A stretch of 64,000 bases of DNA from Candidatus Pacearchaeota archaeon (GTDB lineage Archaea > Nanobdellota > Nanobdellia > Pacearchaeales > JAHJTO01). The notes beneath the pieces were generated by a model. It was not told where the DNA came from and ran no database searches. It saw only the letters and a program-made list of their open reading frames with translations. Numbering within the stretch: position 1 is the stretch's first letter; the number at the start of each line of letters is the position of its first letter. The translations under genes and the position numbers were made by a program. Location of the stretch: positions 28,322 through 92,321 of the forward strand of contig JAWCMS010000002.1 of NCBI GenBank assembly GCA_038849525.1, read 5' to 3'. Below, one piece after another: positions 50,107-62,849 of the stretch.

Positions 50107-50121
50107 GAAAAGGAAAAAAGA

Positions 50122-50346
50122 ATGAAAAAACAAATAAAACAATTTATAACGAAAGAAATGTCAATTTCAGAAGTTGCAGCCAAATATCCTGAAACTATTC
50201 CTACTTTAATAAAATATGGAATGCATTGTTTAGGATGTCCTATGGCAATGCAAGAAACTTTAGAAGAAGGGTTATCAGCACATGGGTTAGATGTTAGCAG
50301 AATAATTGAAGAAATGAATAAACTAGTTAAGAAAAAAAGAAAATGA
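50122..50346 (+). CDS. DUF1858-like redox-disulfide domain protein (hybrid-cluster-protein-associated)
   Basis: ...MSISEVAAKYPETIPTLIKYGMHCLGCPMAMQETLEE... matches the CxxC-containing DUF1858 family. Confidence 0.55.
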   Translation: MKKQIKQFITKEMSISEVAAKYPETIPTLIKYGMHCLGCPMAMQETLEEGLSAHGLDVSRIIEEMNKLVKKKRK

Positions 50347-50810
50347 ATTATAAATCATATTGGAAAAAAGAAGAATTCATTTTGAAGGAAGCACTTTTAC
50401 ATGTGACTATAATATCTATAATAGTTTTCGCAATTGCATATTTTGGAAAAAATTTTAATCATATCGGCTTGATTTTGATTGCAGCAGGAATTCTTCCTTT
50501 AATTAGCTTAAAGTTGACAGGGGAAAAGATAAAAGAAAGTATTGCTGAGATTGTTTTTGGATTTATCAATACTGGATTAATAACTCTTTTTGCTATCATA
50601 GGATATAATATTGAAGGTTTGTTAGGGGCAGTCATTGGAGTTGTATTAGGAGATGTCATAACAGAAGGTTACTCTGGAATTTTAGAAGGTGAAGTTGTGG
50701 ATTTAATGCTGAGATGGAAAATAAAGGAAAAAATAGATCCTCTAAATTCATCTTTAGGAAAGATGGCAGGAGCATTGTTTGGAGGAGGTATAGTGCTTCT
50801 GATTTTTTAG
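50343..50810 (+). CDS. Small membrane protein
   Basis: Four hydrophobic helices, Gly-rich. Lies between the DUF1858 and iscU genes. Confidence 0.3.
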   Translation: MNYKSYWKKEEFILKEALLHVTIISIIVFAIAYFGKNFNHIGLILIAAGILPLISLKLTGEKIKESIAEIVFGFINTGLITLFAIIGYNIEGLLGAVIGVVLGDVITEGYSGILEGEVVDLMLRWKIKEKIDPLNSSLGKMAGALFGGGIVLLIF

Positions 50811-50816
50811 TTTAAT

Positions 50817-51269
50817 ATGACAGATCCAATTAGATACTCAAAGAAAGTAATGAAATATTTTTTACATCCAAAAAATATTGGTGAGATTAAAAATGCTGAT
50901 GGAATAGGCAAAGTAGGAAATCCAATATGTGGGGATATAATGTATATTTATATTAAAGTAGGAAAACGTGGAAAAAATGAAATTATCGAAAACATAAAGT
51001 TCAAGACATTAGGATGTGCTGCTGCAATTGCAACAAGTTCTGTTGTAACTGAGTTAGCAAAAGGCAAAACTTTGCAAAAGGCAATAAAAATAACAAATAA
51101 AGATGTTGTAAAATTTTTAGGGGGGCTGCCTCCTATAAAGCGTCATTGTTCTTTACTTGCAGAAGAGGCTCTTGGAGAGGCGATTTACGATTATTTAAAG
51201 AAAAATAAAAAAGAGATTCCTAAAGAACTAAAAGAAAAGCATAAGAATATATTAAAGGAAGAGAAATGA
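50817..51269 (+). CDS. iscU: Fe-S cluster assembly scaffold (NifU/IscU-like)
   Basis: ...GKVGNPICGDIMYIYIKV... and ...LGCAAAIATSS... and ...KRHCSLLAEEAL (three conserved Cys plus His of U-type scaffolds). Confidence 0.8.
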   Translation: MTDPIRYSKKVMKYFLHPKNIGEIKNADGIGKVGNPICGDIMYIYIKVGKRGKNEIIENIKFKTLGCAAAIATSSVVTELAKGKTLQKAIKITNKDVVKFLGGLPPIKRHCSLLAEEALGEAIYDYLKKNKKEIPKELKEKHKNILKEEK

Positions 51270-51723: not shown

Positions 51724-52166
51724 GGATTCTTGCAGTCTATTCTACAATAACAGGAAATACACTAAAGTTACTAAAAGGAATCAAAAAGAGTATAAGGGAA
51801 ATGAGAATAATAAAATCTTCAAAAAAAGCTGTTAAAGAAATAAAAAAAGCTGAGTTAGTAATTTTTGCTTCTGGAATTTATATGTGGAAGCACCATAAAA
51901 AACTTTTAAGATTTTCTGAAGACATACCAAAAATTAGAAAAAAAGCCCTTATAATGTCAACTGCGGGCTTGCCTTTTAAGTGGATTATGCATCTTACATT
52001 GAGAAAAATATTAGAAAAAAAAGGTTTTATAATCTTGGGTGAATTTTCTTGTAAAGGATATGATAAATTTGGGCCTCTTAAGATTTTTGGAGGAATAAAT
52101 AAAGGTCATCCTAACAAAAAAGATATAAATATGGCTACTGAATTTATTAAAAATAAGATAAAATGA
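51720..52166 (+). CDS. Flavodoxin-like fold protein
   Basis: N-terminal MRILAVYSTITGNTLKL (flavodoxin FMN-phosphate loop T-G-N-T). About 148 aa. Confidence 0.5.
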   Translation: MRILAVYSTITGNTLKLLKGIKKSIREMRIIKSSKKAVKEIKKAELVIFASGIYMWKHHKKLLRFSEDIPKIRKKALIMSTAGLPFKWIMHLTLRKILEKKGFIILGEFSCKGYDKFGPLKIFGGINKGHPNKKDINMATEFIKNKIK

Positions 52167-52646: not shown

Positions 52647-53087
52647 ATGACAAAAGAGGCAATCATAAAACTTCTTAATCAAGCTCTTGAGCTAGAACAT
52701 GCGGCTGAAATTCAATATCTAGCTCACGCTGAATTGATTGATGGGTTGTATGCAGAACCTATAATATCAAGGTTAAAAGAAATTGCTGAAGACGAACATA
52801 AACATGCTGCGATTTTCAGAGAGTTGATAGGCGGCATTCTTGGAGGCACTCCTATAATGAGTGTTGCCAAAACATATCCTGGAAAAGAGATAAGGCAAAT
52901 TTTAGAGCAGAACTTGAAAAATGAAAAAGAAGCTATAGATATGTATACAAAGATTTTAGAAGCGATTTATAATGACAAAAAAAACCTGCCATACGAATTC
53001 CATAAGCTTGAGCATGATGTAAGGTCTATTATAATGGATGAGCAAGAGCATGTCTCTGAGCTAAAATTGTTGCTTGCAAAACGTTGA
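52647..53087 (+). CDS. Ferritin-like/rubrerythrin-like diiron four-helix-bundle protein
   Basis: E...EH.AEIQY and E.EHKHA paired E-x-x-H motifs (ALELEHAAEIQY; AEDEHKHAAIF; MDEQEHVSEL). Confidence 0.55.
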   Translation: MTKEAIIKLLNQALELEHAAEIQYLAHAELIDGLYAEPIISRLKEIAEDEHKHAAIFRELIGGILGGTPIMSVAKTYPGKEIRQILEQNLKNEKEAIDMYTKILEAIYNDKKNLPYEFHKLEHDVRSIIMDEQEHVSELKLLLAKR

Positions 53088-53105
53088 GAAGTTTATTCTG
53101 CAAAT

Positions 53106-53354
53106 ATGGGAAGAAAAAGGATTATTAAGATTCCTAAATCTGTAAAGATTAAATGTCCTCACTGTGGTAAAAAAAATTTAATAAAAATGCCAAAGGAGAA
53201 TATTTATTTTTTTGAGTGTAAAAAATGCAAAAATAAAATTGAAACTCCACAAAGCCAATGTTGTATTCTTTGTGCTTACAGCAATTCAAGATGTTATAAT
53301 GAATTGATAAGAACAGCACAAAGAAATGAGCTTGAAGTAAGACAAATAAAATGA
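53106..53354 (+). CDS. Small zinc-ribbon protein
   Basis: CPHCGKK...ECKKCKNK...CCILC. Multiple CxxC pairs in 82 aa. Confidence 0.4.
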   Translation: MGRKRIIKIPKSVKIKCPHCGKKNLIKMPKENIYFFECKKCKNKIETPQSQCCILCAYSNSRCYNELIRTAQRNELEVRQIK

Positions 53355-53713
53355 AAAAAGTATTATTATTATTCTTATTATTATCTTTTTTGTTTATAAT
53401 AGGAATGAGCGGATGCCATCAGACTTCAGTAAAAGAAAAAGAAGAACAAAAACAGCAAATTCCTACAATGCATGTAATTAAAATAAAGGAATTTAAATTT
53501 CAGCCATCTGAAATAATAATACATCGAGGTGATAGTATAGTATGGATAAATGAGGATCCTTATCCTACAGTACACACAGTATCTGCTTATGACTTATCAT
53601 ACAGCTTTAAAATGATTTACGGACAAAATGCGACAAAAATATTTAATGAATCTGGGACATACGAATATTACTGCGCTGTTCATGGAGAAAAAGGAAAAAT
53701 AATTGTAAAATGA
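53351..53713 (+). CDS. Cupredoxin (plastocyanin/azurin-like blue-copper protein), secreted and possibly lipid-anchored
   Basis: Signal peptide ending ...IIGMSGC. Type-1 Cu ligands H (HTVSAY...) and C-x-x-H-x-x-x-x-K/M (YYCAVHGEKGK). Confidence 0.65.
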   Translation: MKKVLLLFLLLSFLFIIGMSGCHQTSVKEKEEQKQQIPTMHVIKIKEFKFQPSEIIIHRGDSIVWINEDPYPTVHTVSAYDLSYSFKMIYGQNATKIFNESGTYEYYCAVHGEKGKIIVK

Positions 53714-53943
53714 AAGTTATTGTTTATTCCACATCAACATGTCCTTATTGCGACATGGCAAAAGAATTTTTAAGAAAAAACAAAATTAAATTCTTAGATA
53801 TAGATGTTAATGAAAATAAGAATGCAGCAAGGGACATGATAAAAAAGTCAGGCCAGACAGGAGTCCCTGTAATAGAGATCGATAATCAGATTGTAATTGG
53901 CTTTAATAAGCAAAAGCTCAAAGAATTATTAAAACTAAAATAG
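53710..53943 (+). CDS. Glutaredoxin/NrdH-like thioredoxin-fold protein
   Basis: MKVIVYSTSTCPYCDMAKEFL...TGVPVIEID. A CPYC active site followed by cis-Pro. Confidence 0.75.
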   Translation: MKVIVYSTSTCPYCDMAKEFLRKNKIKFLDIDVNENKNAARDMIKKSGQTGVPVIEIDNQIVIGFNKQKLKELLKLK

Positions 53944-53956
53944 AGGGAATATAAAA

Positions 53957-54136
53957 ATGACAGATAAGATACCAAAAGTCAATCCAAAAAAATGTATATC
54001 TTGTGGAGCATGTATAGCAACATGCCCTAATCAGGCGATTGAATGGAGAAACGGCAAAGCATTCATAAATCCGAAAAAATGCAAAAAGGCATATGAATGC
54101 ATTAAAGTCTGTCCTGTAAAGGCGATAAGTAAGTAA
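53957..54136 (+). CDS. Small 4Fe-4S ferredoxin (absent from the ORF track because it is <60 aa)
   Basis: ATG at 53957. 59 aa: ...CISCGACIATCP...CKKAYECIKVCP. The first motif is canonical CxxCxxCxxxCP; the second is atypical. Confidence 0.6.
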   Translation: MTDKIPKVNPKKCISCGACIATCPNQAIEWRNGKAFINPKKCKKAYECIKVCPVKAISK

Positions 54137-54208: not shown

Positions 54209-55108
54209 TTATTCTTTTTTATCGGTTTTATTTTCTAGATTATTTCTTACTCTTTTCATGTTTTCAAGAATGGTTTCGTAACCTTGCGGTCCTCTCTCGT
54301 TTAGAAGTTGAATCAAAAAAGTCGAAATAAAATGATTCCCTTTATCAAGAATATCTCCAATGTGGACTATGAAGCGTTCTGCTTTTTCATCAAGCACCGT
54401 ATTCTCAAGATTTTTAAGAGGTATTTCCACGTGCTTAGGCAGTGTATAAATAGACTTAGGAAGCAATTTTTCCAGCGGAGAAAAATAGTCTATAGTCCTC
54501 TTAAATTCCCTGCAATTTAGATTAAGCAGAATCTTAATCTCTTTTGCTTTTTCCCTTGGAATTTTATATTTTTCATTGAGACATTTGAAGAAAGTTTTTT
54601 CCTCATCTCCAATACCGCCATATAATATGAGATATTCTGGTGCTATTCTACACATTAACGGCATCGCAATACTTTCATGAAGCACGCATTTCTTGTCATC
54701 TAGGTAATAACAAGGAGATTTCAATTTTGGTCTTATTAGTGGCTTTGCTACTTCCTTTATAGAAAATAGAGTTGGGGTATTTTGAGTGATTTTTTTCATA
54801 AAAAGTATAGTTGAAGGATCCTGAAGGACTTTCTGCAGATTTTCATATGAAAAAGAACTCTCACTTGATTCAAATACATCCTCTATACTTACTGTCAACT
54901 CACATATTTCATTGAACAAATCCAAAAAAGGCTTTTTTTTCGGATTTGCATGTCTGTAAATTCTCTCCAAATCACTAAGATTTAAATGCACAGAAGGATA
55001 TTGCTTCGTATTTTTTTCACTATAAGGTTCTGTCTTTTCTTTGGGACAGCACGATGCGCACTGATTACATTTAAAATATTTCATTTCAGTAAGCCCAATT
55101 TTTTCCAT
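54209..55108 (-). CDS. YkgJ-family (UPF0153) Cys-cluster protein, putative Fe-S/zinc oxidoreductase
   Basis: N-terminal CNQCASCC (CxxCxxCC), as in the YkgJ/flavin-interacting Cys-cluster family. 299 aa. Confidence 0.4.
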   Translation of the reverse strand: MEKIGLTEMKYFKCNQCASCCPKEKTEPYSEKNTKQYPSVHLNLSDLERIYRHANPKKKPFLDLFNEICELTVSIEDVFESSESSFSYENLQKVLQDPSTILFMKKITQNTPTLFSIKEVAKPLIRPKLKSPCYYLDDKKCVLHESIAMPLMCRIAPEYLILYGGIGDEEKTFFKCLNEKYKIPREKAKEIKILLNLNCREFKRTIDYFSPLEKLLPKSIYTLPKHVEIPLKNLENTVLDEKAERFIVHIGDILDKGNHFISTFLIQLLNERGPQGYETILENMKRVRNNLENKTDKKE

Positions 55109-55494
55109 TCTTTTCTTGTTTTTTCGTTAACATACACCTGAAGTGGTTCGATTTTCAGGTTACTAATAGTATATTTATCTTTTAGATATTCCTTCAGCAT
55201 ATTAGCAAAGACATCAGCAACAATTTTTGGTACACCACCAAAACTGCTTGAGTAGTCATAGATCTTCAATATTCCATTCTCAATTACAAATTTTCCTCCA
55301 CCAAGCACCCTTCTTTCTGAGATTCCATTATCCTCTGCGATTGTTCTATGGTAAGGTTTTTCACCTCCTCTTATTCGAAGATTTGCAGAATACCATACCA
55401 AGAATTTTCCTTCTTTAGCAATAATATATTTGCTTTCATTATCAGGAAATCCTTCTACGAAGCCTATTTTATATTCAAGATTTTTCTTTGCCAT
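55081..55494 (-). CDS. Hypothetical protein
   Basis: 137-aa ORF; Gly-rich GGGKF and SSSFGG stretches; no known motif. Confidence 0.25.
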   Translation of the reverse strand: MAKKNLEYKIGFVEGFPDNESKYIIAKEGKFLVWYSANLRIRGGEKPYHRTIAEDNGISERRVLGGGKFVIENGILKIYDYSSSFGGVPKIVADVFANMLKEYLKDKYTISNLKIEPLQVYVNEKTRKEWKKLGLLK

Positions 55495-55508
55495 TTCATT
55501 TTATCATT

Positions 55509-55712
55509 TTATTTTTTCTTTCCATTCTCTCTGCCAAGTATGTTATCTGCTATCTGCATGAGATCATACTGATCGAACCTCTTTGCCAAAGAGCCTTCAA
55601 ACTGAGACATTTCTTTGATTTTCAAATAGCTTGGCAAAAATTTTCTTAGTTCTGCTACATCTTCAGCATTATCATTTATGACAAGTATTTTCTCTAGCTT
55701 TTTGTTTTCCAT
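55509..55712 (-). CDS. Hypothetical small protein
   Basis: 67-aa ORF between two other small minus-strand ORFs. Confidence 0.2.
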   Translation of the reverse strand: MENKKLEKILVINDNAEDVAELRKFLPSYLKIKEMSQFEGSLAKRFDQYDLMQIADNILGRENGKKK

Positions 55713-55773
55713 TTTATTCTTTTAGCTTTGTTTTTTATATTGTTTTTTCATAAGGAATATATACCCCCCTTAT

Positions 55774-56037
55774 TCAGTGCACATAAGCAAAAGTGCTTTG
55801 TTTCATGCCTAAAATAACTCCTTCCAGGTTTATTCTCAGATATTTTCCTGTTCTGTCCAAAACATCAAAGTGGTTTTCCAATTTATCATAACTCCACAGT
55901 TTACCATTGATGTCTCTATACATCATTGCTCCTGTCTTCGGATTGATTCCAACTTTCGCTTCTTGCAGAGAATAGCACTTTTTAGGCAAAACATACCCTG
56001 CATTCTTCATGAATTCAAATGTTTCTTTAAGGTTCAT
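55774..56037 (-). CDS. Hypothetical small protein
   Basis: 87-aa ORF, divergent from the AbrB-PhoU-like gene. Confidence 0.25.
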   Translation of the reverse strand: MNLKETFEFMKNAGYVLPKKCYSLQEAKVGINPKTGAMMYRDINGKLWSYDKLENHFDVLDRTGKYLRINLEGVILGMKQSTFAYVH

Positions 56038-56167
56038 TTTGTCTCCTTATATGTTACTTTATAGTGATAAAAGAAATTTAAGAAGATTTTTAATAAGATA
56101 TATATATTTGTATAAGTATATATAAAAACAAAAGATTTATATATTAAAAGATAATGATAAGTACAAC

Positions 56168-57106
56168 ATGAAACGTAAAATAATCAAGTTAGGCACGGCA
56201 ACTTTAGTAACCAGCTTGCCTGCAAAATGGATTAAGGAATTTGGATTAAAACAGGGCGACTATATTGATGTTGAAGAAATGAAAAGTAACCTTATCTTAT
56301 CAACAGAAAAAGAAATCGCTAAGGCAGAAAAGAAAATTGATCTTAAAGGAGTTAACACAAAGCTTGCATCTTATTATATCGAAGCGGCATACTGCATTGG
56401 CTATGATAGGATAGAGATTCTACATGAGCCTTATATTACAGAGTATAAAACGAACAGAAAGATATCAACATCAGAATTTATACAAAAAGAGGCAAATAGC
56501 TTTATAGGGATAGAAATTATTGAGCAATCCCCTGAAAAAACTGTTCTGAAAGATCTCGGTAAAGTGTCTGATACAGAGGCTGACAATATCTTAAGAAGGT
56601 GTTTTTTGCTTACAAAGGACATGTTCAATGAATGCTTTAATGCAATAAAAAATAAGAACAAGGAAGTTTTAAAAGAAATGGATAGCAGAGGTAACAATGT
56701 CCAGAGATTTATATATTATTATAAAAGAATATTGAATAAAAAAGGATACAAGGATTTTAACAAAACTGCTGTAATGTACCATAACATCGAAATTCTTGCG
56801 GATATTGTCGGTATAACAAAATACATTGCGAAAGAAAGCCTACTCTTCAGAAAAGATTACACTGAAAAAGCACTGAAAGTTTTTTCAATGACTACAGATT
56901 CAATAAACAAACTCGATTCTCTTTTCTTTACATTTTCAAAGGAAAAGTCAATGGAGATAATAAAAGAAAGGGCGCAGATATGGGAACTCATGAATACTGA
57001 AAAAAATAAGTCAACAGCGGAAGATGCTTATCTCTATTCTAAGTTAGCAATGATAGTTATGAATGTTTCTTATCTCGCTATTGGAAGGTTTTACTTAGAA
57101 TTATAA
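56168..57106 (+). CDS. AbrB/SpoVT-PhoU-like regulator (paralog of 11666-12622)
   Basis: KIIKLGTATLVTSLPAKWIKEFGLKQGDYI (AbrB-like). Conserved mid-domain GIEIIEQSPEKTVLKDL versus GVEIVEQNAEQIVIKDI in the paralog. Confidence 0.55.
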   Translation: MKRKIIKLGTATLVTSLPAKWIKEFGLKQGDYIDVEEMKSNLILSTEKEIAKAEKKIDLKGVNTKLASYYIEAAYCIGYDRIEILHEPYITEYKTNRKISTSEFIQKEANSFIGIEIIEQSPEKTVLKDLGKVSDTEADNILRRCFLLTKDMFNECFNAIKNKNKEVLKEMDSRGNNVQRFIYYYKRILNKKGYKDFNKTAVMYHNIEILADIVGITKYIAKESLLFRKDYTEKALKVFSMTTDSINKLDSLFFTFSKEKSMEIIKERAQIWELMNTEKNKSTAEDAYLYSKLAMIVMNVSYLAIGRFYLEL

Positions 57107-57898
57107 GGCGCAACAAGTACCAAAAATTTCATCTTTAGAACAATTTTCCCAAACTATCCATTCAGCATTTATAGGTTTTTTATCACAACAAACTTTAATG
57201 TTTACTTTATAATCAGAAGTTGGTACATAGATATCATCAATTTTTTTCATGACGCTTAAACGGATATTCTCATCTATCTCGCAATCCGAAAAATCAATAT
57301 AATAAGTGTTAGTTTCATCCTGAATAAAAGTTCCTTTGCAATTATCATCCAAAAAATTTCCTTCTTTATCTACTCTTACAATTTCATATTCTTCTGTAAG
57401 TTCCTTATTAGTTTCAAGTGCAATAATACAATTCCAAGCTAGACTACTAAGGTATACTTCAAGGAATGAGATTATTAGACCTAAAAAGAAAATGCTTATT
57501 GCCACAAAAAATAAAATTTTGTCAGTTTTTGTTGGTTTATTTTTTTGCACTAAAAAAAGTACAAATATTAAAAAAAGTATAGGTAATATTTCAGCGTGAT
57601 GGTTCATTCCAAATGAAGGAATTTTAAATATTAATGATGAGAGAAATATAATTAATGTAGCTATCATAGCAGCAAGATTTTTTCTTTTTATAAGAAAAGC
57701 AAGAATTAAAAATGCTAAACCTTCTATGGCCGTTCCGTAACCTATGCCAATTTTAAGTAAATGAGTTATATTGCCTAATTTAGCCCAAATGCTGATAGCA
57801 ATTGAGAGTATAACTCTGATGATAATTATCCAAAATGTCAAAATTAGAAATAAATTCGAGATGTTTTGCTTATCAAATTTTTTCATTTTCATCTTCAA
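57101..57898 (-). CDS. Membrane protein with C-terminal extracytoplasmic Cys-rich domain
   Basis: Five predicted TM helices, then a domain with 9 Cys (CIIAL..., DNCKG, SDCEID, VCCDKK, ENCSKD, GTCCAL). Confidence 0.35.
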   Translation of the reverse strand: MKMKMKKFDKQNISNLFLILTFWIIIIRVILSIAISIWAKLGNITHLLKIGIGYGTAIEGLAFLILAFLIKRKNLAAMIATLIIFLSSLIFKIPSFGMNHHAEILPILFLIFVLFLVQKNKPTKTDKILFFVAISIFFLGLIISFLEVYLSSLAWNCIIALETNKELTEEYEIVRVDKEGNFLDDNCKGTFIQDETNTYYIDFSDCEIDENIRLSVMKKIDDIYVPTSDYKVNIKVCCDKKPINAEWIVWENCSKDEIFGTCCAL

Positions 57899-58649
57899 AA
57901 ATTATTTTAAGAAGCTCTGATGGTTCATTTATTTTATAAGAAATGTCTTTTAATTGTGACAAATCTTTATTTGCATATCTGAATGCAACCGTCTTATATT
58001 TTAATTTATGTGCTCCTACAAGCTCATCAGTATCATGACCGATAAAAATAACTTCATCTTTCTTTAGCCCGTGTTTTTTCAAAGCAGTTTCGAAAAATTT
58101 TGCATCCGGCTTACATACATGAACATCTTTTGAGGATATAATATCTGAAATTTCTGAACCGTATCCTATTTTTTTCAGCGATTCCTGAAGTTCATAGCCG
58201 TGCTTTGTCGCATCTGTAAGAACTATTATTTTGATTCCTTCCCTTGCGATCTGTTCAAGAACTTCTTTCACTCCAGGAATAACTTTTGGAGATTTTTTAT
58301 TTTGGTTGATATAATTCATTAAATCATTATAGTATTTTTCAATCATTAATTCCTTAAGGGTATCTTTATATGCATCCTTTCTTTCATAACCTTCAATTGT
58401 CTGAGCCTTGGTTTTATATTTATTATATATTTTCTTAAATTTTTCTTCATTAATGTTGCTAAAAGAAGATGTTTCTTTTGGAATTTCATCTTCTTTATCT
58501 GCTATAAAATTTTTACTTTTAAGATAATCAAATAATTCATTTTTCTGTTTACTATCTTCAAACAAAATGTTCCCGCCATCTATAAGTAGTGCTTTTATTT
58601 TATTTGTCATTTTTCTTTTTTTCATGTTTCTTAGAAACTTCCTTTGCAA
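57873..58649 (-). CDS. HAD-superfamily hydrolase
   Basis: LIDGGNILF (degenerate motif I), ...IVLTDATKHG..., ...VCKPDAKFF..., ...IGHDTDELVGA (motifs II-IV). Confidence 0.55.
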   Translation of the reverse strand: MQRKFLRNMKKRKMTNKIKALLIDGGNILFEDSKQKNELFDYLKSKNFIADKEDEIPKETSSFSNINEEKFKKIYNKYKTKAQTIEGYERKDAYKDTLKELMIEKYYNDLMNYINQNKKSPKVIPGVKEVLEQIAREGIKIIVLTDATKHGYELQESLKKIGYGSEISDIISSKDVHVCKPDAKFFETALKKHGLKKDEVIFIGHDTDELVGAHKLKYKTVAFRYANKDLSQLKDISYKINEPSELLKIIFEDENEKI

Positions 58650-59214
58650 TTATGCCTTCTAATTCTTTCTGATCTGTCTTAACCTTGTCAAAAAGATAGC
58701 TAAAGTCATTTAGTGTAATGTCACGCTCCTTGTTTATTATTTGTTTCATCTCACTCAAAGGCATATTTTCTCTATAAAGATGAGTTTTACCATATACTTT
58801 TAAAGTTTCTAGAAAGTTATCCTTTATTTTATTATAGTGAGTCGTTCCAGGTTTAATTGAATCATAAATTAGAGGGTTAATTGAATTAATGATTTCGTTG
58901 CTTTCTTGTATTTTTTCATTCGTATCTTCTATGGTGTTAACAATATCTCTTCTAAGAATAATTCCTTCAAATAAACTATTTTTTTGAGCAAGAGGCTTTA
59001 CTTTTATAGAGTATATTCCTATATAGCTTCCAAGTATAATTGCAGCTATAGAAGCGATAGTTACTACCTTCTTCTTTAAAGAATTATAATAATTTTTAAT
59101 TTCCTTTATTTCCTTTGATTTTTTGGCCATAGCTTCTATTATTGTCTTATCTATTACTTTAATGTCTTCTTGGTAAATCGCATTTACGTCCTTGATTTGG
59201 TTTTCAGTTTTCAT
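58600..59214 (-). CDS. Membrane-anchored hypothetical protein
   Basis: Single TM (VVTIASIAAIILGSYIGIY) with coiled-coil flanks. Confidence 0.3.
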   Translation of the reverse strand: MKTENQIKDVNAIYQEDIKVIDKTIIEAMAKKSKEIKEIKNYYNSLKKKVVTIASIAAIILGSYIGIYSIKVKPLAQKNSLFEGIILRRDIVNTIEDTNEKIQESNEIINSINPLIYDSIKPGTTHYNKIKDNFLETLKVYGKTHLYRENMPLSEMKQIINKERDITLNDFSYLFDKVKTDQKELEGIIAKEVSKKHEKKKNDK

Positions 59215-60317
59215 ATTTTTATCTCCTTGATTTTCGCATAATTTTTTACATTTGTCAGAAGATCCTCTTTTGCATGCTCTGCTTTTCTGGCAGCGACTTC
59301 AAATATTTTTGGATCATATTTGTTTTTAGCCAAAAATTTCTTGTCATTCATCACTTCTCTATATTCTTTAGCTTTTTTCTCTGCAAATCCAGCTAATTTT
59401 ATGTATTCATGAATTCTTGCTAATGAATAAATTTCTTTGAATTTTTCGAAATTTTGGTTTATACTTAATTTTGAGTATAACATTTCAATAGCCTTATTTT
59501 CCTTTTCAGCATTATTTTCCCAGCCAAATGAAAAGATGATTCTCGCCAAGTCTGTTTGTGGTACACCATACATCGCTCTTGACCAGTCTATAATCCATAA
59601 GTCTCCATTTTTCTTCAAGATTATATTGCTAAAATGAAGATCCCCATGAGTCAAACCACTTCTATTGGCATTAAGTTTATCTGAAATATTCTTATAATCA
59701 AATTTTTGGGTAAAGCCAAATGATTCATATTCCTTCCAGTAGTCTGATTTTTCAATTAGTTTTTTGATCCTCTTGTTTAAAGGAATAGAGTGATACGCCA
59801 CAATGTTGTCTATTATTTTTTCAAGGGTGTTTTCTTTTTCCTCATAGCTCATTTGGAATACTTTCTTTGCCAAATCAATATCTTCTTTATCCAAAAGTTC
59901 GAAGGCAATAAATTCAGAATTATTGTAAATATTTGATAATACAATTTTATTATTTAGTTGTTCTCCAAGATAATCAGAAATAACCTTTTCTTTCTCTATC
60001 TCGTGCTTTTCAGCATTTTTCCCAAAACATATAAACTCTGTTCCGTTTGGAAATCCCATTTTAACATAAACGCAATCAGGATGGCCACTTTTTTTATTTG
60101 CACTTGATATAAATTCATCTGTTCTGATAAAATCATTGAGTTTATTGTATTCTGATTTCGTAAGCTCTCCATTTTTCAATTTTTCCTTTATGCCATATTC
60201 GATTAATTCAGCGATAAACTTATCAATACCTGAACTAACGAACTGATTAAGGCATTCATTATCATAATTTTCTTCCATTTTAACTTTCTTCATATATTTC
60301 TTATATACGCTTAACAT
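59211..60317 (-). CDS. Aminoglycoside-phosphotransferase/choline-kinase-like (APH-family) small-molecule kinase
   Basis: Catalytic loop LTHGDLHFSNIIL and metal-binding IIDWSRA (HGDxxxxN...IDWE pattern). Confidence 0.7.
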   Translation of the reverse strand: MLSVYKKYMKKVKMEENYDNECLNQFVSSGIDKFIAELIEYGIKEKLKNGELTKSEYNKLNDFIRTDEFISSANKKSGHPDCVYVKMGFPNGTEFICFGKNAEKHEIEKEKVISDYLGEQLNNKIVLSNIYNNSEFIAFELLDKEDIDLAKKVFQMSYEEKENTLEKIIDNIVAYHSIPLNKRIKKLIEKSDYWKEYESFGFTQKFDYKNISDKLNANRSGLTHGDLHFSNIILKKNGDLWIIDWSRAMYGVPQTDLARIIFSFGWENNAEKENKAIEMLYSKLSINQNFEKFKEIYSLARIHEYIKLAGFAEKKAKEYREVMNDKKFLAKNKYDPKIFEVAARKAEHAKEDLLTNVKNYAKIKEIKI

Positions 60318-60459: not shown

Positions 60460-62646
60460 ATGAATGAAAAAGAAATTTTGAAGTTTTCAAAAGAATATGC
60501 GAAAAAAGCCGGCTTTGTTTTGAATAAAGACAAAAAGCAGTTAGATTATATTATAAAAAGCTTGAAAAAGAATGAAGAAAAATATGGTTTTAGATTCTGT
60601 CCTTGTCGTGTTGTTACAGGCAATTTTGAAGAAGACAGAATAATAATCTGTCCTTGTATTTATCATAAGCAAGAGATTAAGGATATGGGGCATTGCTTAT
60701 GCAGATTATTTTTTGATCCTAAAAGAATTGTTAAAGGAGAAATCTGTGAGATTGAAGAAAAAAAGCAATTAGAAAGTTGGGTTAATGAAAAGCTTGTTCA
60801 AAAATCAAGAAAAGACAATGCTTCTTTTGTTATTGACAGATTTTCTGAACAACAGCCACAATGCAATTTTGGCTTATCAGGAGTGTGTTGCAAGAACTGC
60901 AATATGGGTCCTTGTCGCATTACTGAAAAAGCATCAAAAGGAGTATGCGGAGCAGATGCAAATGTCATATGCGCAAGAAATTTATTAAGAACAATCAGCG
61001 CAGGAGCATGCTGCCATGTTGAGCATGCTCGTGAAAATGCCTTGCTGTTATGGAAAATAGGATTGAAGAAAACAAAAGCTTATTCTATTAAAGATAAAGA
61101 AAAACTGAAATTGATTGAAAAAAAGCTTGGCAAGAAATCATCTTCAATTAACAAATCTGCTCTTAATGTTTCTTTGGAAGCATTTGAAGATTTCAGAAGG
61201 CAACATGGAGTTTTTCATAAATCAGAAGGCAATTATCTAAATTGGTTAAGAATAAATGCTCCAAAATATCTGCAAGATGAATGGAAAGAATTAGATATTC
61301 TTCCTGAAAATGCAGACATTGAGACAACAAGAATAAATCATGCCACAACAATGGGCAATGATGCAGATGCAAATTCTTTGCTTTTGCAATGTTTAAAGCT
61401 TGGATTAGTTGACGGCTATGCTGGATTAAGAATGGCTACTGACTTGCAGGATATAATGTTCGGAACTCCTAAATTGATTAAAGCAGAGGCTAATCTTGGA
61501 ACAATAAAGGAAGATTACATCAATTTAGCTGTCCATGGACATATTCCTCTTCTTGCAGAAAAAGTGCTTGAATGGAGTAAAAAATTAGAAAATGATGCTA
61601 AAAAAGCAGGAGCAAAAGGAATAAACATTGTTGGGGTTTGCTGTCAGGCAAATGAAATGGTTCAAAGGCATGGAATTGCAATGGCTAGCCATACAATGCA
61701 GGCTGAATTGGCTTTAGTGACTGGAGCAATAGAAGCAATGGTCGTTGATGCACAATGCATTTATCCAAGTTTGGCAAGTGTTGCAAGCTGTTATCATACT
61801 AAGCTTATTACAACAATGGTTGCAAAACTGCCAGGAGCAATATATATTCCTTTTAAAATAGAAACTGCAGATGAGCAAGCAAAACAAATAGTAAGAATTG
61901 CAATTGATAACTTCAAGAATCGAAATAAGTCAAAAGTCTATATTCCAAATCAGAAAATGGAATTGTATTCTGGATTCTCAGTTGAGCAGATAATAGAGGC
62001 ATTATCCAAACTGAATAAAAAAGAGCCACTAAAGCCATTATTGGACAATATCAAATCAGGAAACATAAAAGGAATTGTTGCAATAGTCGGCTGCAGAAAT
62101 CCTAAATTAAGAGGACAGAAGTTCTGCGAAACTTTAATTAAAAAACTTCTGAAAGAAAATATTCTCGTTGTAACAACAGGATGCATTTCTCATGCAGCTG
62201 CGCAAGAAGGCTTAATGAAGCCTGATGCAATAAGATATTGTGGAGACAAATTAAAATCTGTATTGATTGCAATAGGAAAGGCAAACAATCTTCCTGCTTT
62301 GCCTCCTGTCTTACATATGGGCAGCTGTGTTGATAACTCAAGAATTATTAGATTAGTCTGTGAAATTTCAAATTACAGCAAGATTCCAATCTCTAAACTT
62401 CCTATATTAGCCTCTGCTCCTGAATTAGTTACTGAAAAGGCAGTTGCGATAGGAACAAATGCATTATGCCATGGATTGACTGTTCATGTAAATCCGCCTT
62501 TATGGACATCCGGAGCAAAATTACTAGAAAGTAAGCTTTCAAATCTTCCAAATGGAGGAAAAATATTCTATGAAGATGATGTTGATGAGGCCGCAAAGAA
62601 AATTTTAAAAATTATTGAAGAAAAGAGAAGAATATTAAAGATTTAG
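60460..62646 (+). CDS. cooS: Ni,Fe carbon-monoxide dehydrogenase catalytic subunit (CooS/CODH family) with N-terminal ferredoxin:thioredoxin-reductase-catalytic-subunit-like domain
   Basis: N-terminal ~90 aa: FCPCR...x14...CPCIYH...GHCLCRLFF (FTR CPC/CPC/CHC-like). Then CooS B/D-cluster motif QCNFGLSGVCCKNCNMGPCRI. C-cluster ligands VHGHIPLL, GVCCQANE, DAQCIYPS, GCRNPK, TGCISHAA, HMGSCVDNSR. Confidence 0.75.
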   Translation: MNEKEILKFSKEYAKKAGFVLNKDKKQLDYIIKSLKKNEEKYGFRFCPCRVVTGNFEEDRIIICPCIYHKQEIKDMGHCLCRLFFDPKRIVKGEICEIEEKKQLESWVNEKLVQKSRKDNASFVIDRFSEQQPQCNFGLSGVCCKNCNMGPCRITEKASKGVCGADANVICARNLLRTISAGACCHVEHARENALLLWKIGLKKTKAYSIKDKEKLKLIEKKLGKKSSSINKSALNVSLEAFEDFRRQHGVFHKSEGNYLNWLRINAPKYLQDEWKELDILPENADIETTRINHATTMGNDADANSLLLQCLKLGLVDGYAGLRMATDLQDIMFGTPKLIKAEANLGTIKEDYINLAVHGHIPLLAEKVLEWSKKLENDAKKAGAKGINIVGVCCQANEMVQRHGIAMASHTMQAELALVTGAIEAMVVDAQCIYPSLASVASCYHTKLITTMVAKLPGAIYIPFKIETADEQAKQIVRIAIDNFKNRNKSKVYIPNQKMELYSGFSVEQIIEALSKLNKKEPLKPLLDNIKSGNIKGIVAIVGCRNPKLRGQKFCETLIKKLLKENILVVTTGCISHAAAQEGLMKPDAIRYCGDKLKSVLIAIGKANNLPALPPVLHMGSCVDNSRIIRLVCEISNYSKIPISKLPILASAPELVTEKAVAIGTNALCHGLTVHVNPPLWTSGAKLLESKLSNLPNGGKIFYEDDVDEAAKKILKIIEEKRRILKI

Positions 62647-62651
62647 AGAAA

Positions 62652-62849
62652 ATGGAAAAGTATATAGCAATTCAAAAGCAAATGTGTATTTGGAGGCATA
62701 TTCTTATTTATAAAGGAGGCAGCACAGCTGAAGGCATGAGAAAGAGTATAGACAGAGGTTATAACATTAAAGATTGTCATAAATGTTTTGGATACGATTC
62801 TAAATGTTCTGCTTATTGTTCTTTAAAGAAAAATAGCATTAAGGAATAA
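62652..62849 (+). CDS. Small Cys-rich ORF (candidate peptide)
   Basis: 65 aa with a C-terminal KDCHKCFGYDSKCSAYCS Cys cluster. It converges on and slightly overlaps the 3' end of the rSAM/SPASM gene. Coding status is uncertain. Confidence 0.3.
   Translation: MEKYIAIQKQMCIWRHILIYKGGSTAEGMRKSIDRGYNIKDCHKCFGYDSKCSAYCSLKKNSIKE

What the first reader, a model, noticed from the sequence alone, without database searches (positions are those of the whole stretch)
60460..62646. Ni-CODH catalytic subunit fused to a ferredoxin:thioredoxin-reductase-like N-terminal domain, in a small AT-rich (DPANN-like) archaeal genome
Every C-cluster ligand of CooS-type CODHs is visible: His in VHGHIP, and Cys in GVCCQANE, DAQC, GCRNP, TGCIS and GSCVDN. 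The B/D-cluster motif CNFGLSGVCCKNCNMGPCR is also present. Before it, the first ~90 residues carry CPC-x14-CPC-x12-HCLC-RLF, which is the redox-active Cys arrangement of the FTR catalytic subunit (CPC...CPC...CHC). I do not know this fusion as a described CODH architecture. It would link CO/CO2 redox chemistry directly to a disulfide-reducing module. No cooC, cooF or acs genes are nearby. The neighbours are an rSAM/SPASM enzyme, a Cys-rich small ORF, an APH-like kinase and HAD genes. A full CODH is unexpected in a lineage that otherwise looks metabolically reduced; apart from bacterial-type genes such as thrS, the flanking genes look archaeal. Function could be CO oxidation, or a hydroxylamine/NO-type reductase as in the related hybrid-cluster proteins.
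Basis: partly seen in the sequence, partly recalled or inferred. Interest (0 to 1): 0.75.

Follow-up and report, generated by a model that had tools for sequence, protein, structure and literature searches.

The report
CO dehydrogenase fused to disulfide reductase
A tiny symbiotic-type archaeon (Pacearchaeota) encodes a complete nickel CO dehydrogenase with an iron-sulfur disulfide-reductase module joined to its front end; this probably lets traces of carbon monoxide power the cell's thiol-repair chemistry, but the architecture was already listed once in a 2019 supplementary table and nobody has tested its function.

Summary
ORF 60460-62646(+) encodes 728 aa. Residues 1-88 are an FTR-catalytic-subunit/FDR-type domain (Pfam PF02943, E=6e-20), with all six Cys present as CPC-x14-CPC-x12-CLC. 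Residues 110-728 are a full CooS-type Ni,Fe-CODH: it scores above the TIGR01702 cutoff, all 14 D-, B- and C-cluster and acid-base residues are identical to ChCODH-II, and the model superposes on ChCODH-IV at 1.2 Å.

The fusion is real. It occurs in 15 protein clusters that form one clade, and the N-domain is as conserved (81%) as the CODH body (82%). The recurrent partners are a small ferredoxin, a YruB-type glutaredoxin, and IscS-DUF1858-NifU; in this window a ~6.3-kb block displaces them 6-12 kb upstream.

Related DPANN genomes carry Trx-Fd-FTR or Grx-FTR cassettes with a stand-alone copy of the domain. The unfused sister CODHs have a Grx gene directly upstream.

Best reading, inferred (~0.45): a CO-driven protein-disulfide reductase. 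Main rival: thiol-based maintenance of the CODH itself, supported by clade-specific Cys next to the catalytic His.

Not new as an architecture: Inoue et al. 2019, Table S1, flags the 76%-identical PIU75765.1 as "fused with FtrB-like domain". It is functionally unstudied.

The parts
60460..62646 (+). Whole fusion gene (728 aa plus stop): FDR/FTR-like domain, linker, CooS-type Ni,Fe-CODH
   Evidence: ORF; domains; identical to MEM2956496.1
60318..60459 (+). Upstream intergenic region with a TATA-like A/T box and a GAGG ribosome-binding site, i.e. the gene's own expression signals (read from the sequence, not tested)
   Evidence: Sequence read
60460..60723 (+). Residues 1-88: ferredoxin:disulfide-reductase / FTR-catalytic-subunit-like domain
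   Evidence: PF02943 E=5.9e-20. PDB sequence hits 7pwe and 4tpu, E~1e-17. Domain model has pLDDT 91-97 and matches only FDR/FTR folds: TM 0.78 and rmsd 1.8 Å to 7pwe. Mean pairwise identity among fused homologs is 81%.
60598..60606 (+). C47-P-C49, first Cys motif (one predicted cluster ligand plus one predicted redox-active Cys, by homology to FTR)
   Evidence: Both Cys are invariant in 15 fused and 18 stand-alone homologs; the middle residue is Pro in most and Thr or Val in four
60649..60657 (+). C64-P-C66, second Cys motif (predicted cluster ligands)
   Evidence: Invariant
60694..60702 (+). C79-L-C81, third Cys motif (CHC in plant FTR, CYC in solved FDRs)
   Evidence: Both Cys are invariant. 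The middle residue is L in all fused proteins and L, H, K or F in the stand-alone relatives.
60724..60786 (+). Residues 89-109: variable linker, containing C96
   Evidence: 54% mean identity against ~82% for the flanking domains. pLDDT ~59. Corresponds to the short Cys-containing N-terminal tail of the unfused sister CODHs.
60787..62643 (+). Residues 110-728: CooS-type Ni,Fe-CODH catalytic domain, CODH-IV-like
   Evidence: TIGR01702 595.7 bits > 478. 6elq E=2.6e-199. Foldseek TM 0.95 (normalised to target), rmsd 1.2 Å, 49% identity to 6elq.
60862..60948 (+). Residues 135-163: D-cluster ligands (C135, C143; Cx7C, type II) and B-cluster ligands (C144, C147, C152, C163)
   Evidence: Mapped to ChCODH-II C39, C47, C48, C51, C56, C70
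61009..61017 (+). C184-C185-H186: clade-specific vicinal Cys pair directly before the catalytic acid-base His
   Evidence: Cys in 15/15 fused and 5/5 sister CODHs. C184 is Cys in ~1% of the other 99 CODHs. H186 = ChCODH-II His93.
61540..62328 (+). Span holding the C-cluster ligands H361, C395, C433, C545, C575, C623
   Evidence: Identical to ChCODH-II H261, C295, C333, C446, C476, C526. Cys fraction 1.00 in all groups.
53957..54136 (+). 59-aa dicluster-type ferredoxin with 7 Cys; the conserved upstream partner of the fusion gene in relatives
   Evidence: 85-89% identical to the ferredoxins lying 10-200 nt upstream of the fused CODH in L001 and L041; also related to those of L002 and L043. NCBIfam ferredoxin hits.
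53710..53943 (+). 77-aa glutaredoxin-like protein, YruB family, CPYC motif; the likely disulfide acceptor
   Evidence: TIGR02196 93.9 bits > 88.55. Orthologs lie next to the fused CODH (L042, 18 nt; L001; L041) and next to the unfused sister CODHs (L006, L008).
48955..51269 (+). IscS (48955-50106), DUF1858/TIGR03980 redox-disulfide protein (50122-50346), 155-aa membrane protein, NifU/IscU (50817-51269): an Fe-S and sulfur-trafficking module that co-occurs with this CODH clade
   Evidence: tblastn and ORFs. TIGR03980 79 bits > 44.95. Present within 10 kb in 6 of 7 fused loci and in both sister loci.
52647..53354 (+). Ferritin/rubrerythrin-like protein (52647-53087) and GDCCVxC-domain Cys-rich protein (53106-53354), recurring in several fused loci
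   Evidence: Pfam and NCBIfam. The ferritin-like gene is also in L042 and L043. The GDCCVxC protein is also in L001 and L041.
54209..60317 (.). ~6.3-kb lineage-specific block that separates Grx-Fd from the fusion gene here. Not part of the system.
   Evidence: None of its nine genes has a tblastn match in loci L001-L015. No gene of this kind is called in L041-L043. The Fd-to-CODH gap is 10-200 nt in L001, L002, L041 and L043.

Best explanation
The gene encodes one polypeptide that joins a ferredoxin:disulfide-reductase module (FDR, the single-subunit relative of the FTR catalytic subunit; one [4Fe-4S] cluster beside a redox-active Cys pair) to the N-terminus of a complete, catalytically competent CooS-type Ni,Fe-CO dehydrogenase of the CODH-IV kind.

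Proposed mechanism (inferred):
- CO is oxidised to CO2 at the C-cluster.
- The two electrons leave one at a time through the B-cluster to the D-cluster, which sits at the dimer interface and is built from the first residues of the CODH body.
- They pass directly, or through the small co-encoded ferredoxin, to the tethered FDR [4Fe-4S] cluster.
- The FDR uses them to cleave its C49/C81-type disulfide.
- The resulting dithiol reduces a small thioredoxin-fold protein. The best candidates are the co-encoded YruB-type glutaredoxin, a thioredoxin in some relatives, and possibly the DUF1858 redox-disulfide protein.

The cell would thereby turn trace CO (about -520 mV) into reduced protein thiols for disulfide repair, oxidative-stress defence and Fe-S/sulfur trafficking, without needing NADPH or a central-metabolic source of reduced ferredoxin.

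Shown: the domain identities, ligand conservation, single origin and purifying selection of the fusion, and the recurrent gene partners. Inferred: the electron path, the acceptor and the physiological role.
For: 1. Both halves look functional. All 14 CODH cluster and acid-base residues are identical to ChCODH-II, and TIGR01702 scores above its cutoff. The six FDR Cys are invariant in 15 fused and 18 stand-alone homologs.
2. The FDR core is as conserved as the CODH body (81% vs 82%) while the linker drifts (54%).
3. The fusion is monophyletic (36/40 bootstraps) and is found in JGI, ENA, NCBI and Logan assemblies, so it is not an assembly artefact.
4. Stand-alone copies of this same domain (70-86% identical) sit in Trx-Fd-FTR (L012, in the same thrS-HAD syntenic slot) or in translationally coupled Grx-FTR pairs (L014/L015). 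These are the classical donor-reductase-acceptor cassettes.
5. Elsewhere the domain is repeatedly fused to Grx or Trx, and the closest solved structure is a Grx-FDR fusion.
6. In fused loci a ferredoxin lies 10-200 nt upstream in 4 of 7. A Grx or Trx lies within 8 kb in 6 of 7, and is directly adjacent in L042.
7. The unfused sister CODHs have a Grx gene 5-33 nt upstream.
8. The D-cluster ligands (C135, C143) lie about 25-35 residues into the CODH part (which starts at residue 110), so an N-terminal tether places the FDR at the enzyme's known electron exit (established CODH structure).
9. FDRs are experimentally shown ferredoxin-dependent Trx/NrdH reductases, as cited in PMC6262447 and PMC7278568.
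10. The closest characterised CODH, CODH-IV, was already proposed to feed CO electrons into oxidative-stress defence (PMC1287953). Ferritin/rubrerythrin-like genes recur here too.
Against: - There are no biochemical data for any member.
- The third motif has Leu where plant FTR has the catalytically helpful His and the solved FDRs have Tyr.
- One fused genome (L002) keeps a separate stand-alone FTR-like gene 1.8 kb away, which is odd if the fused domain does the same job.
- Partner genes are near but not invariably adjacent; in this window they are 6 kb away.
- The sister clade pairs Grx with a CODH that has no FDR domain and no FTR-like gene within the ±8 kb fetched. The whole Grx-linked clade also carries extra Cys next to the catalytic His. 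Both facts fit thiol chemistry aimed at the CODH itself.
- No CooC Ni-insertion gene is in the window or in any related locus.
Confidence: 0.45

Rival explanations
1. Self-maintenance or redox switch. The FDR domain (and the neighbouring Grx) acts on the CODH itself. It would keep clade-specific cysteines near the active site (the vicinal C184-C185 before catalytic His186, plus C311 and C594) reduced, or re-reduce them after O2 exposure, so that the enzyme reactivates using its own CO-derived electrons. This is not exclusive of the main explanation.
For: C184-C185 are Cys in 20/20 members of the fused and sister clades, whereas C184 is Cys in ~1% of the other 99 CODHs. C311 and C594 show the same pattern. 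The sister clade has Grx directly upstream of a CODH that lacks any FDR domain. Inoue et al. speculated that N-terminal Cys extensions of CODHs serve maturation or chaperone roles. CODH-IV-type enzymes are linked to oxidative stress.
Against: The same FDR domain exists as a stand-alone gene in Trx-Fd-FTR and Grx-FTR cassettes in genomes where no CODH is nearby, so its ancestral job is general disulfide reduction. No distance or geometry is available to show that C184/C185 can form a disulfide or be reached. A dedicated 90-aa Fe-S module is a heavy solution for an intramolecular switch.
Confidence: 0.22
2. Pure electron relay. The N-domain has kept its [4Fe-4S] cluster but works only as an extra wire or docking pad between the D-cluster and the small ferredoxin, in the manner of CooF or the extra clusters of Cdh-type CODHs. 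There is no disulfide chemistry, and the product is reduced ferredoxin, for example for IscS/IscU persulfide reduction in Fe-S assembly.
For: A ferredoxin gene lies immediately upstream in most fused loci. IscS, NifU and ThiI genes co-occur. Leu replaces the His/Tyr of the third motif.
Against: The two Cys that are not cluster ligands in FTR (C49 and C81 equivalents) are invariant in all 33 homologs, and the core is under the same constraint as in the stand-alone forms that are gene-coupled to Trx/Grx. CODHs reduce ferredoxins directly from the D-cluster without such a module (established knowledge).
Confidence: 0.13
3. Not a CO dehydrogenase in vivo. It would be an Hcp-like hydroxylamine/NO reductase, or a Ni-free protein.
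For: Same Prismane superfamily. No cooC is found nearby. Ni-free or variant CODHs show some hydroxylamine reductase activity (PMC6344411 introduction).
Against: All C-cluster ligands and both acid-base residues are those of active CODHs. TIGR01702 scores 595.7 bits > 478, while the Hcp models score 18-22 bits against cutoffs of about 360. The model superposes on ChCODH-IV at 1.2 Å rmsd. Many CODH loci lack a local cooC.
Confidence: 0.05
4. Annotation or assembly artefact: two adjacent genes (an FTR-like gene and cooS) wrongly merged into one ORF.
For: Stand-alone FTR-like genes do occupy the same syntenic slot in relatives (L012).
Against: The reading frame is continuous in this window and in 14 further protein clusters from independent assemblies and sources. 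The linker corresponds to the sister CODHs' own N-terminal tail. The fused clade is monophyletic.
Confidence: 0.01

Closest known systems
[quoted passage not shown]
   Same: Same two-domain architecture, 76% identity over the full length (P0014). Same ligand pattern (H, H, C x5, K; type II D-cluster). Same Fd / IscS / DUF1858 / NifU neighbourhood.
   Different: It was recorded only as a singleton in a table. The main text never mentions thioredoxin (0 occurrences), and the single occurrence of 'fused' only says that fused CODHs were classified in the table. No function, clade, partners or origin were analysed. In this window the partner genes are displaced by a 6.3-kb block.
Carboxydothermus hydrogenoformans CODH-IV (PDB 6elq)
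   Same: Closest solved structure: E=2.6e-199, 49% identity, TM 0.95, rmsd 1.2 Å. Monofunctional CooS type, not linked to ACS or ECH. Lies in a gene context that suggests oxidative-stress defence (rubrerythrin; PMC1287953).
   Different: CODH-IV has no N-terminal FDR domain. It is encoded with CooF and an NAD/FAD oxidoreductase as electron carriers, and none of these is present here. It is bacterial and thermophilic, whereas this protein is from a DPANN archaeon and carries extra clade-specific Cys.
Ferredoxin:disulfide reductases (FDR): M. acetivorans FDR (PDB 4tpu) and the Desulfotalea psychrophila glutaredoxin-FDR fusion (PDB 7pwe)
   Same: Same fold (TM 0.72-0.78) and the same ungapped CPC-x14-CPC-x12-CxC spacing. 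Single-subunit type. Gene- or domain-linked to Grx/Trx-fold acceptors.
   Different: In those enzymes the fused partner is the acceptor (Grx) or a rubredoxin domain, and electrons come from free ferredoxin. Here the fused partner is a large electron-source enzyme. The third motif is CLC here rather than CYC.
Plant/cyanobacterial ferredoxin:thioredoxin reductase catalytic subunit (e.g. PDB 1dj7, 2pvg, 7bzk)
   Same: Homologous domain (E 1e-6 to 1e-9; TM ~0.63) with the six Cys that build the [4Fe-4S] cluster and the adjacent active disulfide.
   Different: Different Cys spacing (one insertion and one deletion in the alignment). CHC rather than CLC. Works as a heterodimer with a variable subunit, and no such subunit was seen here.
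Hybrid cluster protein (Hcp)
   Same: Same Prismane superfamily. A DUF1858/TIGR03980 'hybrid-cluster-protein-associated redox disulfide' gene co-occurs in the neighbourhood.
   Different: The Hcp HMMs score 18-22 bits against cutoffs of about 360. The ligand set is that of a Ni,Fe C-cluster.

Membership tests
CooS-type Ni,Fe-CO dehydrogenase catalytic subunit (TIGR01702) | Whole-protein HMM score above the curated equivalog cutoff | tested here: met
   595.7 bits vs cutoff 478, residues 110-726
CooS-type Ni,Fe-CO dehydrogenase catalytic subunit (TIGR01702) | C-cluster ligands: one His plus five Cys | tested here: met
   H361, C395, C433, C545, C575, C623 align to ChCODH-II H261, C295, C333, C446, C476, C526. 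Conserved in all 119 aligned homologs.
CooS-type Ni,Fe-CO dehydrogenase catalytic subunit (TIGR01702) | B-cluster (4 Cys) and D-cluster (2 Cys per subunit) ligands | tested here: met
   C144, C147, C152, C163 (B-cluster) and C135, C143 (D-cluster; Cx7C, type II)
CooS-type Ni,Fe-CO dehydrogenase catalytic subunit (TIGR01702) | Acid-base catalysts His93 and Lys563 (ChCODH-II numbering) | tested here: met
   H186 and K660
CooS-type Ni,Fe-CO dehydrogenase catalytic subunit (TIGR01702) | CODH three-domain fold | tested here: met
   Model pLDDT 90.8. TM 0.95 (normalised to target) and rmsd 1.2 Å to 6elq.
CooS-type Ni,Fe-CO dehydrogenase catalytic subunit (TIGR01702) | Nickel in the C-cluster, CO-oxidising activity, and a Ni-insertion helper (CooC) | not testable with these tools
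   No CooC-type Walker-A motif in the 64-kb window and no CbiA/CooC gene in 9 related loci. The rest of the genome is not available, and activity needs an experiment.
Ferredoxin:disulfide reductase / FTR catalytic subunit superfamily (Pfam PF02943) | HMM match above the gathering cutoff | tested here: met
   71.7 bits vs 22, residues 7-98
Ferredoxin:disulfide reductase / FTR catalytic subunit superfamily (Pfam PF02943) | Six Cys in three CxC motifs (four cluster ligands plus a redox-active pair) | tested here: met
   C47, C49, C64, C66, C79, C81; invariant in 33 homologs
Ferredoxin:disulfide reductase / FTR catalytic subunit superfamily (Pfam PF02943) | FTR/FDR fold | tested here: met
   Domain model pLDDT 91-97. 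The only significant PDB fold hits are FDR and FTR.
Ferredoxin:disulfide reductase / FTR catalytic subunit superfamily (Pfam PF02943) | Genetic coupling to a ferredoxin donor and a Trx/Grx-fold acceptor | tested here: met
   Trx-Fd-FTR (L012) and Grx-FTR (L014) for stand-alone relatives. Fd and Grx/Trx lie near 6 of 7 fused genes.
Ferredoxin:disulfide reductase / FTR catalytic subunit superfamily (Pfam PF02943) | A bound [4Fe-4S] cluster and disulfide-reductase activity | not testable with these tools
   Needs spectroscopy and enzyme assays
Classical plant/cyanobacterial FTR (heterodimeric) | CPC-x16-CPC-x8-CHC spacing with the active-site His | tested here: not met
   Spacing here is x14 and x12 and the motif is CLC. 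The alignment to 7bzk and 2pvg needs gaps.
Classical plant/cyanobacterial FTR (heterodimeric) | Partner variable subunit (FTRv) | not tested
   No dedicated search was run. None appeared among the annotated neighbours.
Hybrid cluster protein (Hcp, TIGR01703 / PRK05290) | HMM score above cutoff | tested here: not met
   17.9 bits vs 360.8 and 22.4 bits vs 367
CODH/ACS (Cdh alpha, TIGR00314) or bacterial CODH/ACS | HMM above cutoff, or an adjacent acetyl-CoA synthase gene | tested here: not met
   69.1 bits vs 781.3. No ACS gene in the window or in related loci.

The most novel reading that the evidence does not exclude
A self-contained CO:protein-disulfide oxidoreductase. One polypeptide would oxidise CO and hand both electrons through C, B, D and the FDR cluster to a disulfide, with no soluble carrier needed. 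Genome-reduced DPANN archaea would then have a CO-powered thioredoxin/glutaredoxin system that replaces NADPH- or metabolism-dependent thiol reduction and also supports Fe-S assembly. This would be a new physiological role for Ni-CODH (thiol homeostasis rather than energy conservation or carbon fixation). It would also be the first FDR/FTR wired directly to an enzyme instead of to ferredoxin.
Probability: 0.4. Interest if true: 0.72.

Novelty: new variant of a known kind. Interest (0 to 1): 0.58.

Why it matters
Ni-CODHs are known to feed CO electrons into acetyl-CoA synthesis, hydrogenases, NAD(P)H formation and, by proposal, peroxide detoxification. A hard-wired link to a disulfide reductase would add thiol-redox maintenance to that list.

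It would also give a concrete, testable answer to how metabolically minimal DPANN archaea obtain low-potential reductant for their thioredoxin-fold proteins and Fe-S machinery.

For enzymology, it offers a natural construct in which the FTR-type two-step disulfide cleavage is driven by a defined two-electron source. CODH-IV-like enzymes are also of interest as O2-tolerant, high-affinity CO scavengers.

The caveat is that the architecture is confined to one small clade of uncultivated archaea, was already catalogued in a 2019 supplementary table, and every functional statement here is inference.

Tried and rejected
- **Window contig lookup:** looking up the window's own contig by the exact protein found no record, so nothing beyond base 64000 could be read.
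- **GTDB genome scan:** the scan with the full protein returned only distant bacterial CODHs (32-44% identity, none covering residues 1-107), so it added no taxonomy or context for the fusion.
- **N-domain searches:** the word-indexed search with the N-domain returned only 18 small proteins and did not list the fused ones. The exhaustive representative search also hides the fused clade, probably because its 50%-identity representative is an unfused CODH. Independent CODH-FTR fusions in other lineages therefore cannot be excluded: only the top 150 of 636 hits were visible.
- **Literature:** searches for the fusion in main texts gave nothing. The primary FDR papers (PMC6005431, PMC4697749) are not held, so FDR biochemistry is cited second-hand.
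- **Model coordinates:** they are not exposed to scripts, so the FDR-cluster to D-cluster distance and the geometry of C184/C185 could not be measured.
- **First tree script:** it timed out and was redone with vectorised distances.
- **rSAM/SPASM and 65-aa Cys-rich ORF as partners:** rejected, because neither these nor the kinase and HAD of the 6.3-kb block recur in any related locus.
- **Hcp-like function:** rejected.
- **Merged-gene artefact:** rejected.

Full report
**1. Observation.**
It has a GAGG ribosome-binding site and a TATA-like A/T box in the 142-nt gap upstream. Pfam finds two domains. FeThRed_B (PF02943) covers residues 7-98 (E=5.9e-20, 71.7 bits against a gathering score of 22). 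Prismane (PF03063) covers residues 142-692 (E=2e-143). NCBIfam's equivalog model for the anaerobic CODH catalytic subunit (TIGR01702) scores 595.7 bits, above its 478-bit cutoff. The hybrid-cluster-protein models reach only 18-22 bits against cutoffs near 360, and the Cdh-alpha model reaches 69 against 781. The identical sequence is MEM2956496.1 from a Candidatus Pacearchaeota MAG (contig of 162,650 bp), annotated only as a CODH catalytic subunit. Pacearchaeota belongs to the DPANN/Nanobdellati archaea. The window is ~30% G+C throughout, and the gene does not stand out in composition.

**2. The CODH half.**
The best solved relative is C. hydrogenoformans CODH-IV (6elq, E=2.6e-199), followed by CODH-II. 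I transferred the ligand numbering of ChCODH-II (established knowledge of that enzyme) through the HMMER alignment. Every functional residue is identical:
- D-cluster: C135, C143 (Cx7C, the [4Fe-4S] 'type II' arrangement)
- B-cluster: C144, C147, C152, C163
- C-cluster: H361, C395, C433, C545, C575, C623
- Acid-base pair: H186, K660

An AlphaFold2 model built on an 87-sequence alignment has mean pLDDT 90.8 and pTM 0.86. It superposes on 6elq with a target-normalised TM-score of 0.95 and rmsd 1.2 Å at 49% identity. This is a bona fide CooS-type Ni,Fe-CODH by every sequence and fold criterion. Nickel content and activity cannot be tested here.

**3. The N-terminal half.**
Residues 1-88 match solved ferredoxin:disulfide reductases best. 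These are 7pwe (the Desulfotalea psychrophila glutaredoxin-FDR fusion) and 4tpu (the Methanosarcina acetivorans FDR), both at E~1e-17 and aligned without gaps through the Cys region. Plant and cyanobacterial FTR catalytic subunits match at 1e-6 to 1e-9 and need gaps. The motif is C47-P-C49, x14, C64-P-C66, x12, C79-L-C81. The domain folded alone gives pLDDT 91-97 over residues 1-90. Its only significant PDB fold matches are 7pwe (TM 0.78, rmsd 1.8 Å), 4tpu, and the FTR catalytic subunits (TM ~0.63). It is therefore an FDR-type member of the FTR-catalytic-subunit superfamily, not a classical heterodimeric FTR. The spacing differs, and the His of the CHC motif is Leu. The solved FDRs have Tyr there, and close stand-alone relatives have L, H, K or F, so that position is variable in this branch.

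**4. Is the fusion real and maintained?**
Fifteen 90%-identity clusters (P0001-P0015, 76-100% identical) carry both Pfam domains. They come from JGI, ENA, NCBI and Logan assemblies, on contigs up to 236 kb. In a neighbour-joining tree of 119 CODH domains they form one clade (36/40 bootstraps). Their sister group (40/40) is a set of unfused DPANN CODHs, P0016-P0020, at 68-73% identity. Among the fused proteins the FDR core is as conserved as the CODH body (mean pairwise identity 81.4% vs 82.2%), while the linker is not (54%). All six Cys and many surrounding residues are invariant. The linker corresponds to the short Cys-containing N-terminal tail of the sister CODHs ('KKKCVIP...ETWIDEKLV' against 'GEICEIE...ESWVNEKLV'). 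The module was therefore joined to the very N-terminus of an intact CODH. The picture is a single fusion event followed by purifying selection on both parts. A merged-gene artefact is excluded.

**5. Gene neighbourhood.**
None of them recurs in any related locus.

What does recur around the fused gene, across seven distinct loci (this window, L001, L002/3, L004/5, L041, L042, L043), is the following:
- A 55-67-aa dicluster-type ferredoxin lies 10-200 nt upstream in L001, L002, L041 (uncalled, found by tblastn) and L043. It lies 1.5 kb upstream in L004.
- A 77-85-aa glutaredoxin lies 18 nt upstream in L042, 0.8-1.3 kb upstream in L041 and L001, and 6.8 kb downstream in L043. L004 has a thioredoxin instead.
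- IscS, a DUF1858 protein and NifU/IscU lie within 10 kb in six of the seven loci.
- MarR/ArsR-type regulators, ferritin/rubrerythrin-like proteins and a GDCCVxC Cys-rich protein also recur.

In this window all of these are present on the same strand: IscS 48955-50106, DUF1858 50122-50346, NifU 50817-51269, flavodoxin 51720-52166, ferritin-like 52647-53087, GDCCVxC 53106-53354, cupredoxin 53351-53713, Grx 53710-53943 and Fd 53957-54136. A ~6.3-kb block (54209-60317), absent from all relatives, separates the ferredoxin from the fusion gene. The Grx passes the YruB-family model (93.9 bits > 88.55). The DUF1858 protein passes TIGR03980, 'hybrid cluster protein-associated redox disulfide domain' (79 bits > 44.95). 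No cooC, cooF, acs or hydrogenase gene was found among the window proteins scanned or in any related locus, and no CooC/ParA-type Walker-A motif exists in the window. About ten ORFs of 90 aa or more and most shorter ones were not scanned against the family libraries.

**6. Where the N-domain came from.**
Searching with the N-domain alone finds stand-alone 82-111-aa proteins that are 52-86% identical. Their contexts are informative. In L012/L013 the order is thrS...HAD...thioredoxin, ferredoxin, FTR-like, with the last two overlapping. This is the same syntenic slot as the fused gene but without a CODH. In L014/L015 a glutaredoxin and the FTR-like gene overlap by 4 nt. These are textbook donor-reductase-acceptor cassettes. 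L002 even keeps a stand-alone copy (83% identical to our N-domain) 1.8 kb upstream of its fused gene. The unfused sister CODHs (L006-L009) have a 76-77-aa glutaredoxin 5-33 nt upstream, in a same-strand run that contains IscS, DUF1858, NifU and ThiI. An exhaustive HMMER search with the N-domain (636 representatives at E<=1e-3) shows that this module is otherwise fused to glutaredoxin, thioredoxin, rubredoxin-like, CoA-binding or kinase domains. Among the 150 listed representatives it is never fused to a large redox enzyme.

**7. Mechanism (inference).**
[quoted passage not shown] I cite this second-hand from PMC6262447 and PMC7278568; the primary papers were not held. In CODHs, electrons leave the C-cluster through the B-cluster to the D-cluster, which is built from Cys residues close to the N-terminus at the dimer interface (established knowledge). 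Here those Cys are C135 and C143, about 25-35 residues into the CODH part, which begins at residue 110.

An N-terminal tether therefore places the FDR module at the enzyme's electron exit. The most economical reading is a CO-driven protein-disulfide reductase. The path would be CO, C-cluster, B-cluster, D-cluster, (optionally the small ferredoxin), FDR [4Fe-4S], the C49/C81 disulfide, and finally Grx or Trx (and possibly DUF1858). Thermodynamically this runs strongly downhill: CO2/CO is about -520 mV and FTR-type disulfides and Trx/Grx are about -200 to -320 mV (textbook values, from memory). The two electrons of CO match the two needed per disulfide. The role would be thiol homeostasis, oxidative-stress defence and support of Fe-S and sulfur trafficking in a genome-reduced organism. 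This echoes the proposal that CODH-IV feeds CO electrons to rubrerythrin (PMC1287953). I put this at about 0.45.

**8. Rivals.**
A finding that cuts the other way is that the whole Grx-linked CODH clade has extra cysteines. This covers the 15 fused proteins and the 5 sister proteins. The vicinal pair C184-C185 sits immediately before the catalytic His186 and is Cys in 20/20 of them. C184 is Cys in about 1% of the other 99 CODHs. C311 and C594 behave similarly. The sister clade also pairs a Grx with a CODH that has no FDR domain. Together these fit a model in which the thiol machinery services the CODH itself, as a redox switch or for reactivation after O2 exposure (about 0.22; not exclusive of the main model). 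A pure electron-relay role for the N-domain, delivering reduced ferredoxin to the ISC system, is possible (about 0.13). It does not explain why the two non-ligand Cys are invariant. An Hcp-like or Ni-free function (about 0.05) and an artefact (about 0.01) are poorly supported.

**9. Comparison with what is known, and novelty.**
The architecture has been seen before. Inoue et al. [quoted passage not shown] Their Table S2 gives its neighbours by COG (COG0822 and COG1104; I take these to be IscU and NifS/IscS from memory, which matches the NifU_N and Aminotran_5 Pfam hits). That protein is P0014, 76% identical to ours. The paper's main text never discusses the fusion. A 2026 preprint on CODH genomic contexts does not mention it. 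No other searchable paper links CODH to FTR or FtrB.

The following appear to be new here:
- the clade of 15 clusters and its single origin;
- the constraint on the N-domain;
- its FDR-type affinity;
- its derivation from Trx/Grx-Fd-FTR cassettes;
- the conserved Fd/Grx/ISC partners;
- the clade-specific Cys.

Relative to characterised systems it is a new variant of known kinds. It is a CODH with a built-in acceptor module of a type not seen before, or equally an FDR wired to an enzyme instead of to free ferredoxin.

**10. Verdict.**
The function is plausible but untested. Interest is moderate to high (0.58): a neat, directly testable hypothesis about a new physiological use of CO. It is limited by its narrow phylogenetic range, the earlier cataloguing, and the lack of any biochemical or geometric evidence for the proposed electron path.

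Noticed in passing
window 61009-61014 (C184-C185); also C311 and C594 of the ORF: A vicinal Cys pair directly before the catalytic His186 is invariant in the fused clade and in the Grx-adjacent sister clade (20/20). C184 is Cys in ~1% of the other 99 CODHs. C311 and C594 are likewise clade-specific. This may be a thiol switch near the active site.
   Followed up: partly
window 54209-60317: A ~6.3-kb block of nine genes sits between the ferredoxin and the fusion gene. It includes a 299-aa Cys-rich protein, an AbrB/MazE-like 312-aa protein, a membrane protein, a HAD and an APH-like kinase. Relatives have only 10-200 nt at this position. None of its genes has a tblastn match in loci L001-L015. 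Its origin (insertion or rearrangement) is unknown.
   Followed up: partly
window 62652-62849 (+) and 62839-63939 (-): A 65-aa Cys-rich ORF starts 6 nt after the CODH stop and converges on a radical-SAM/SPASM gene of family TIGR04084 (311 bits > 225). This could be a peptide and maturase pair. Neither gene recurs near other fused CODHs.
   Followed up: partly
window 4966-6678 (-): A 570-aa protein combines thioredoxin-like and glutaredoxin-like regions with a SfLAP (DsbD/LysE-like) membrane domain. It is homologous to the two genes immediately downstream of the unfused sister CODH in L006 (a 169-aa protein and SfLAP) and resembles the Trx-SfLAP gene in L042. It may be a membrane thiol-disulfide relay belonging to the same redox network.
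   Followed up: partly
L002 5881-6180 (also L003 1677-1976): A stand-alone 99-aa FTR-like gene, 83% identical to the fused N-domain, is kept 1.8 kb upstream of that genome's own fused CODH. It is either a recent duplicate or the ancestral copy.
   Followed up: partly
window 53957-54136; L001 7815-7991; L002 7788-7991; L041 7737-7910: The ferredoxins next to most fused CODHs have 7 Cys rather than 8 (second motif CxxAxxCxxxCP), which suggests one [3Fe-4S] plus one [4Fe-4S] cluster. The ferredoxins in L012 (stand-alone FTR cassette) and L043 have all 8. The L041 gene was not called by the source annotation.
   Followed up: partly
L004 10483-11991; L005 8014-9549: In the CG06 Pacearchaeota genome, the NifU/IscU gene next to the fused CODH is ~500 aa and carries intein/LAGLIDADG homing-endonuclease Pfam hits. 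It looks like an intein-interrupted Fe-S scaffold gene.
   Followed up: no
window 11666-12622 (+) and 56168-57106 (+): Two paralogous ~315-aa proteins have an AbrB/MazE-type N-terminal domain (the first also has a PhoU domain). One of them lies inside the 6.3-kb block.
   Followed up: no
window 21717-22499 (-): An AbiEii-type nucleotidyltransferase toxin gene (type IV toxin-antitoxin, abortive-infection family) in this small archaeal genome.
   Followed up: no
L042 9873-11144 (-): A RuBisCO large-subunit gene lies 4 kb from the fused CODH in one relative. CO2 released by the CODH could in principle feed it, but there is no evidence of a link.
   Followed up: no
window 60745-60747 (C96, in the linker): A linker Cys is present in 12 of 15 fused proteins. 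The unfused sister CODHs carry a Cys in their short N-terminal tail. This is reminiscent of the 'additional N-terminal Cys motifs' noted by Inoue et al. Its function is unknown.
   Followed up: partly
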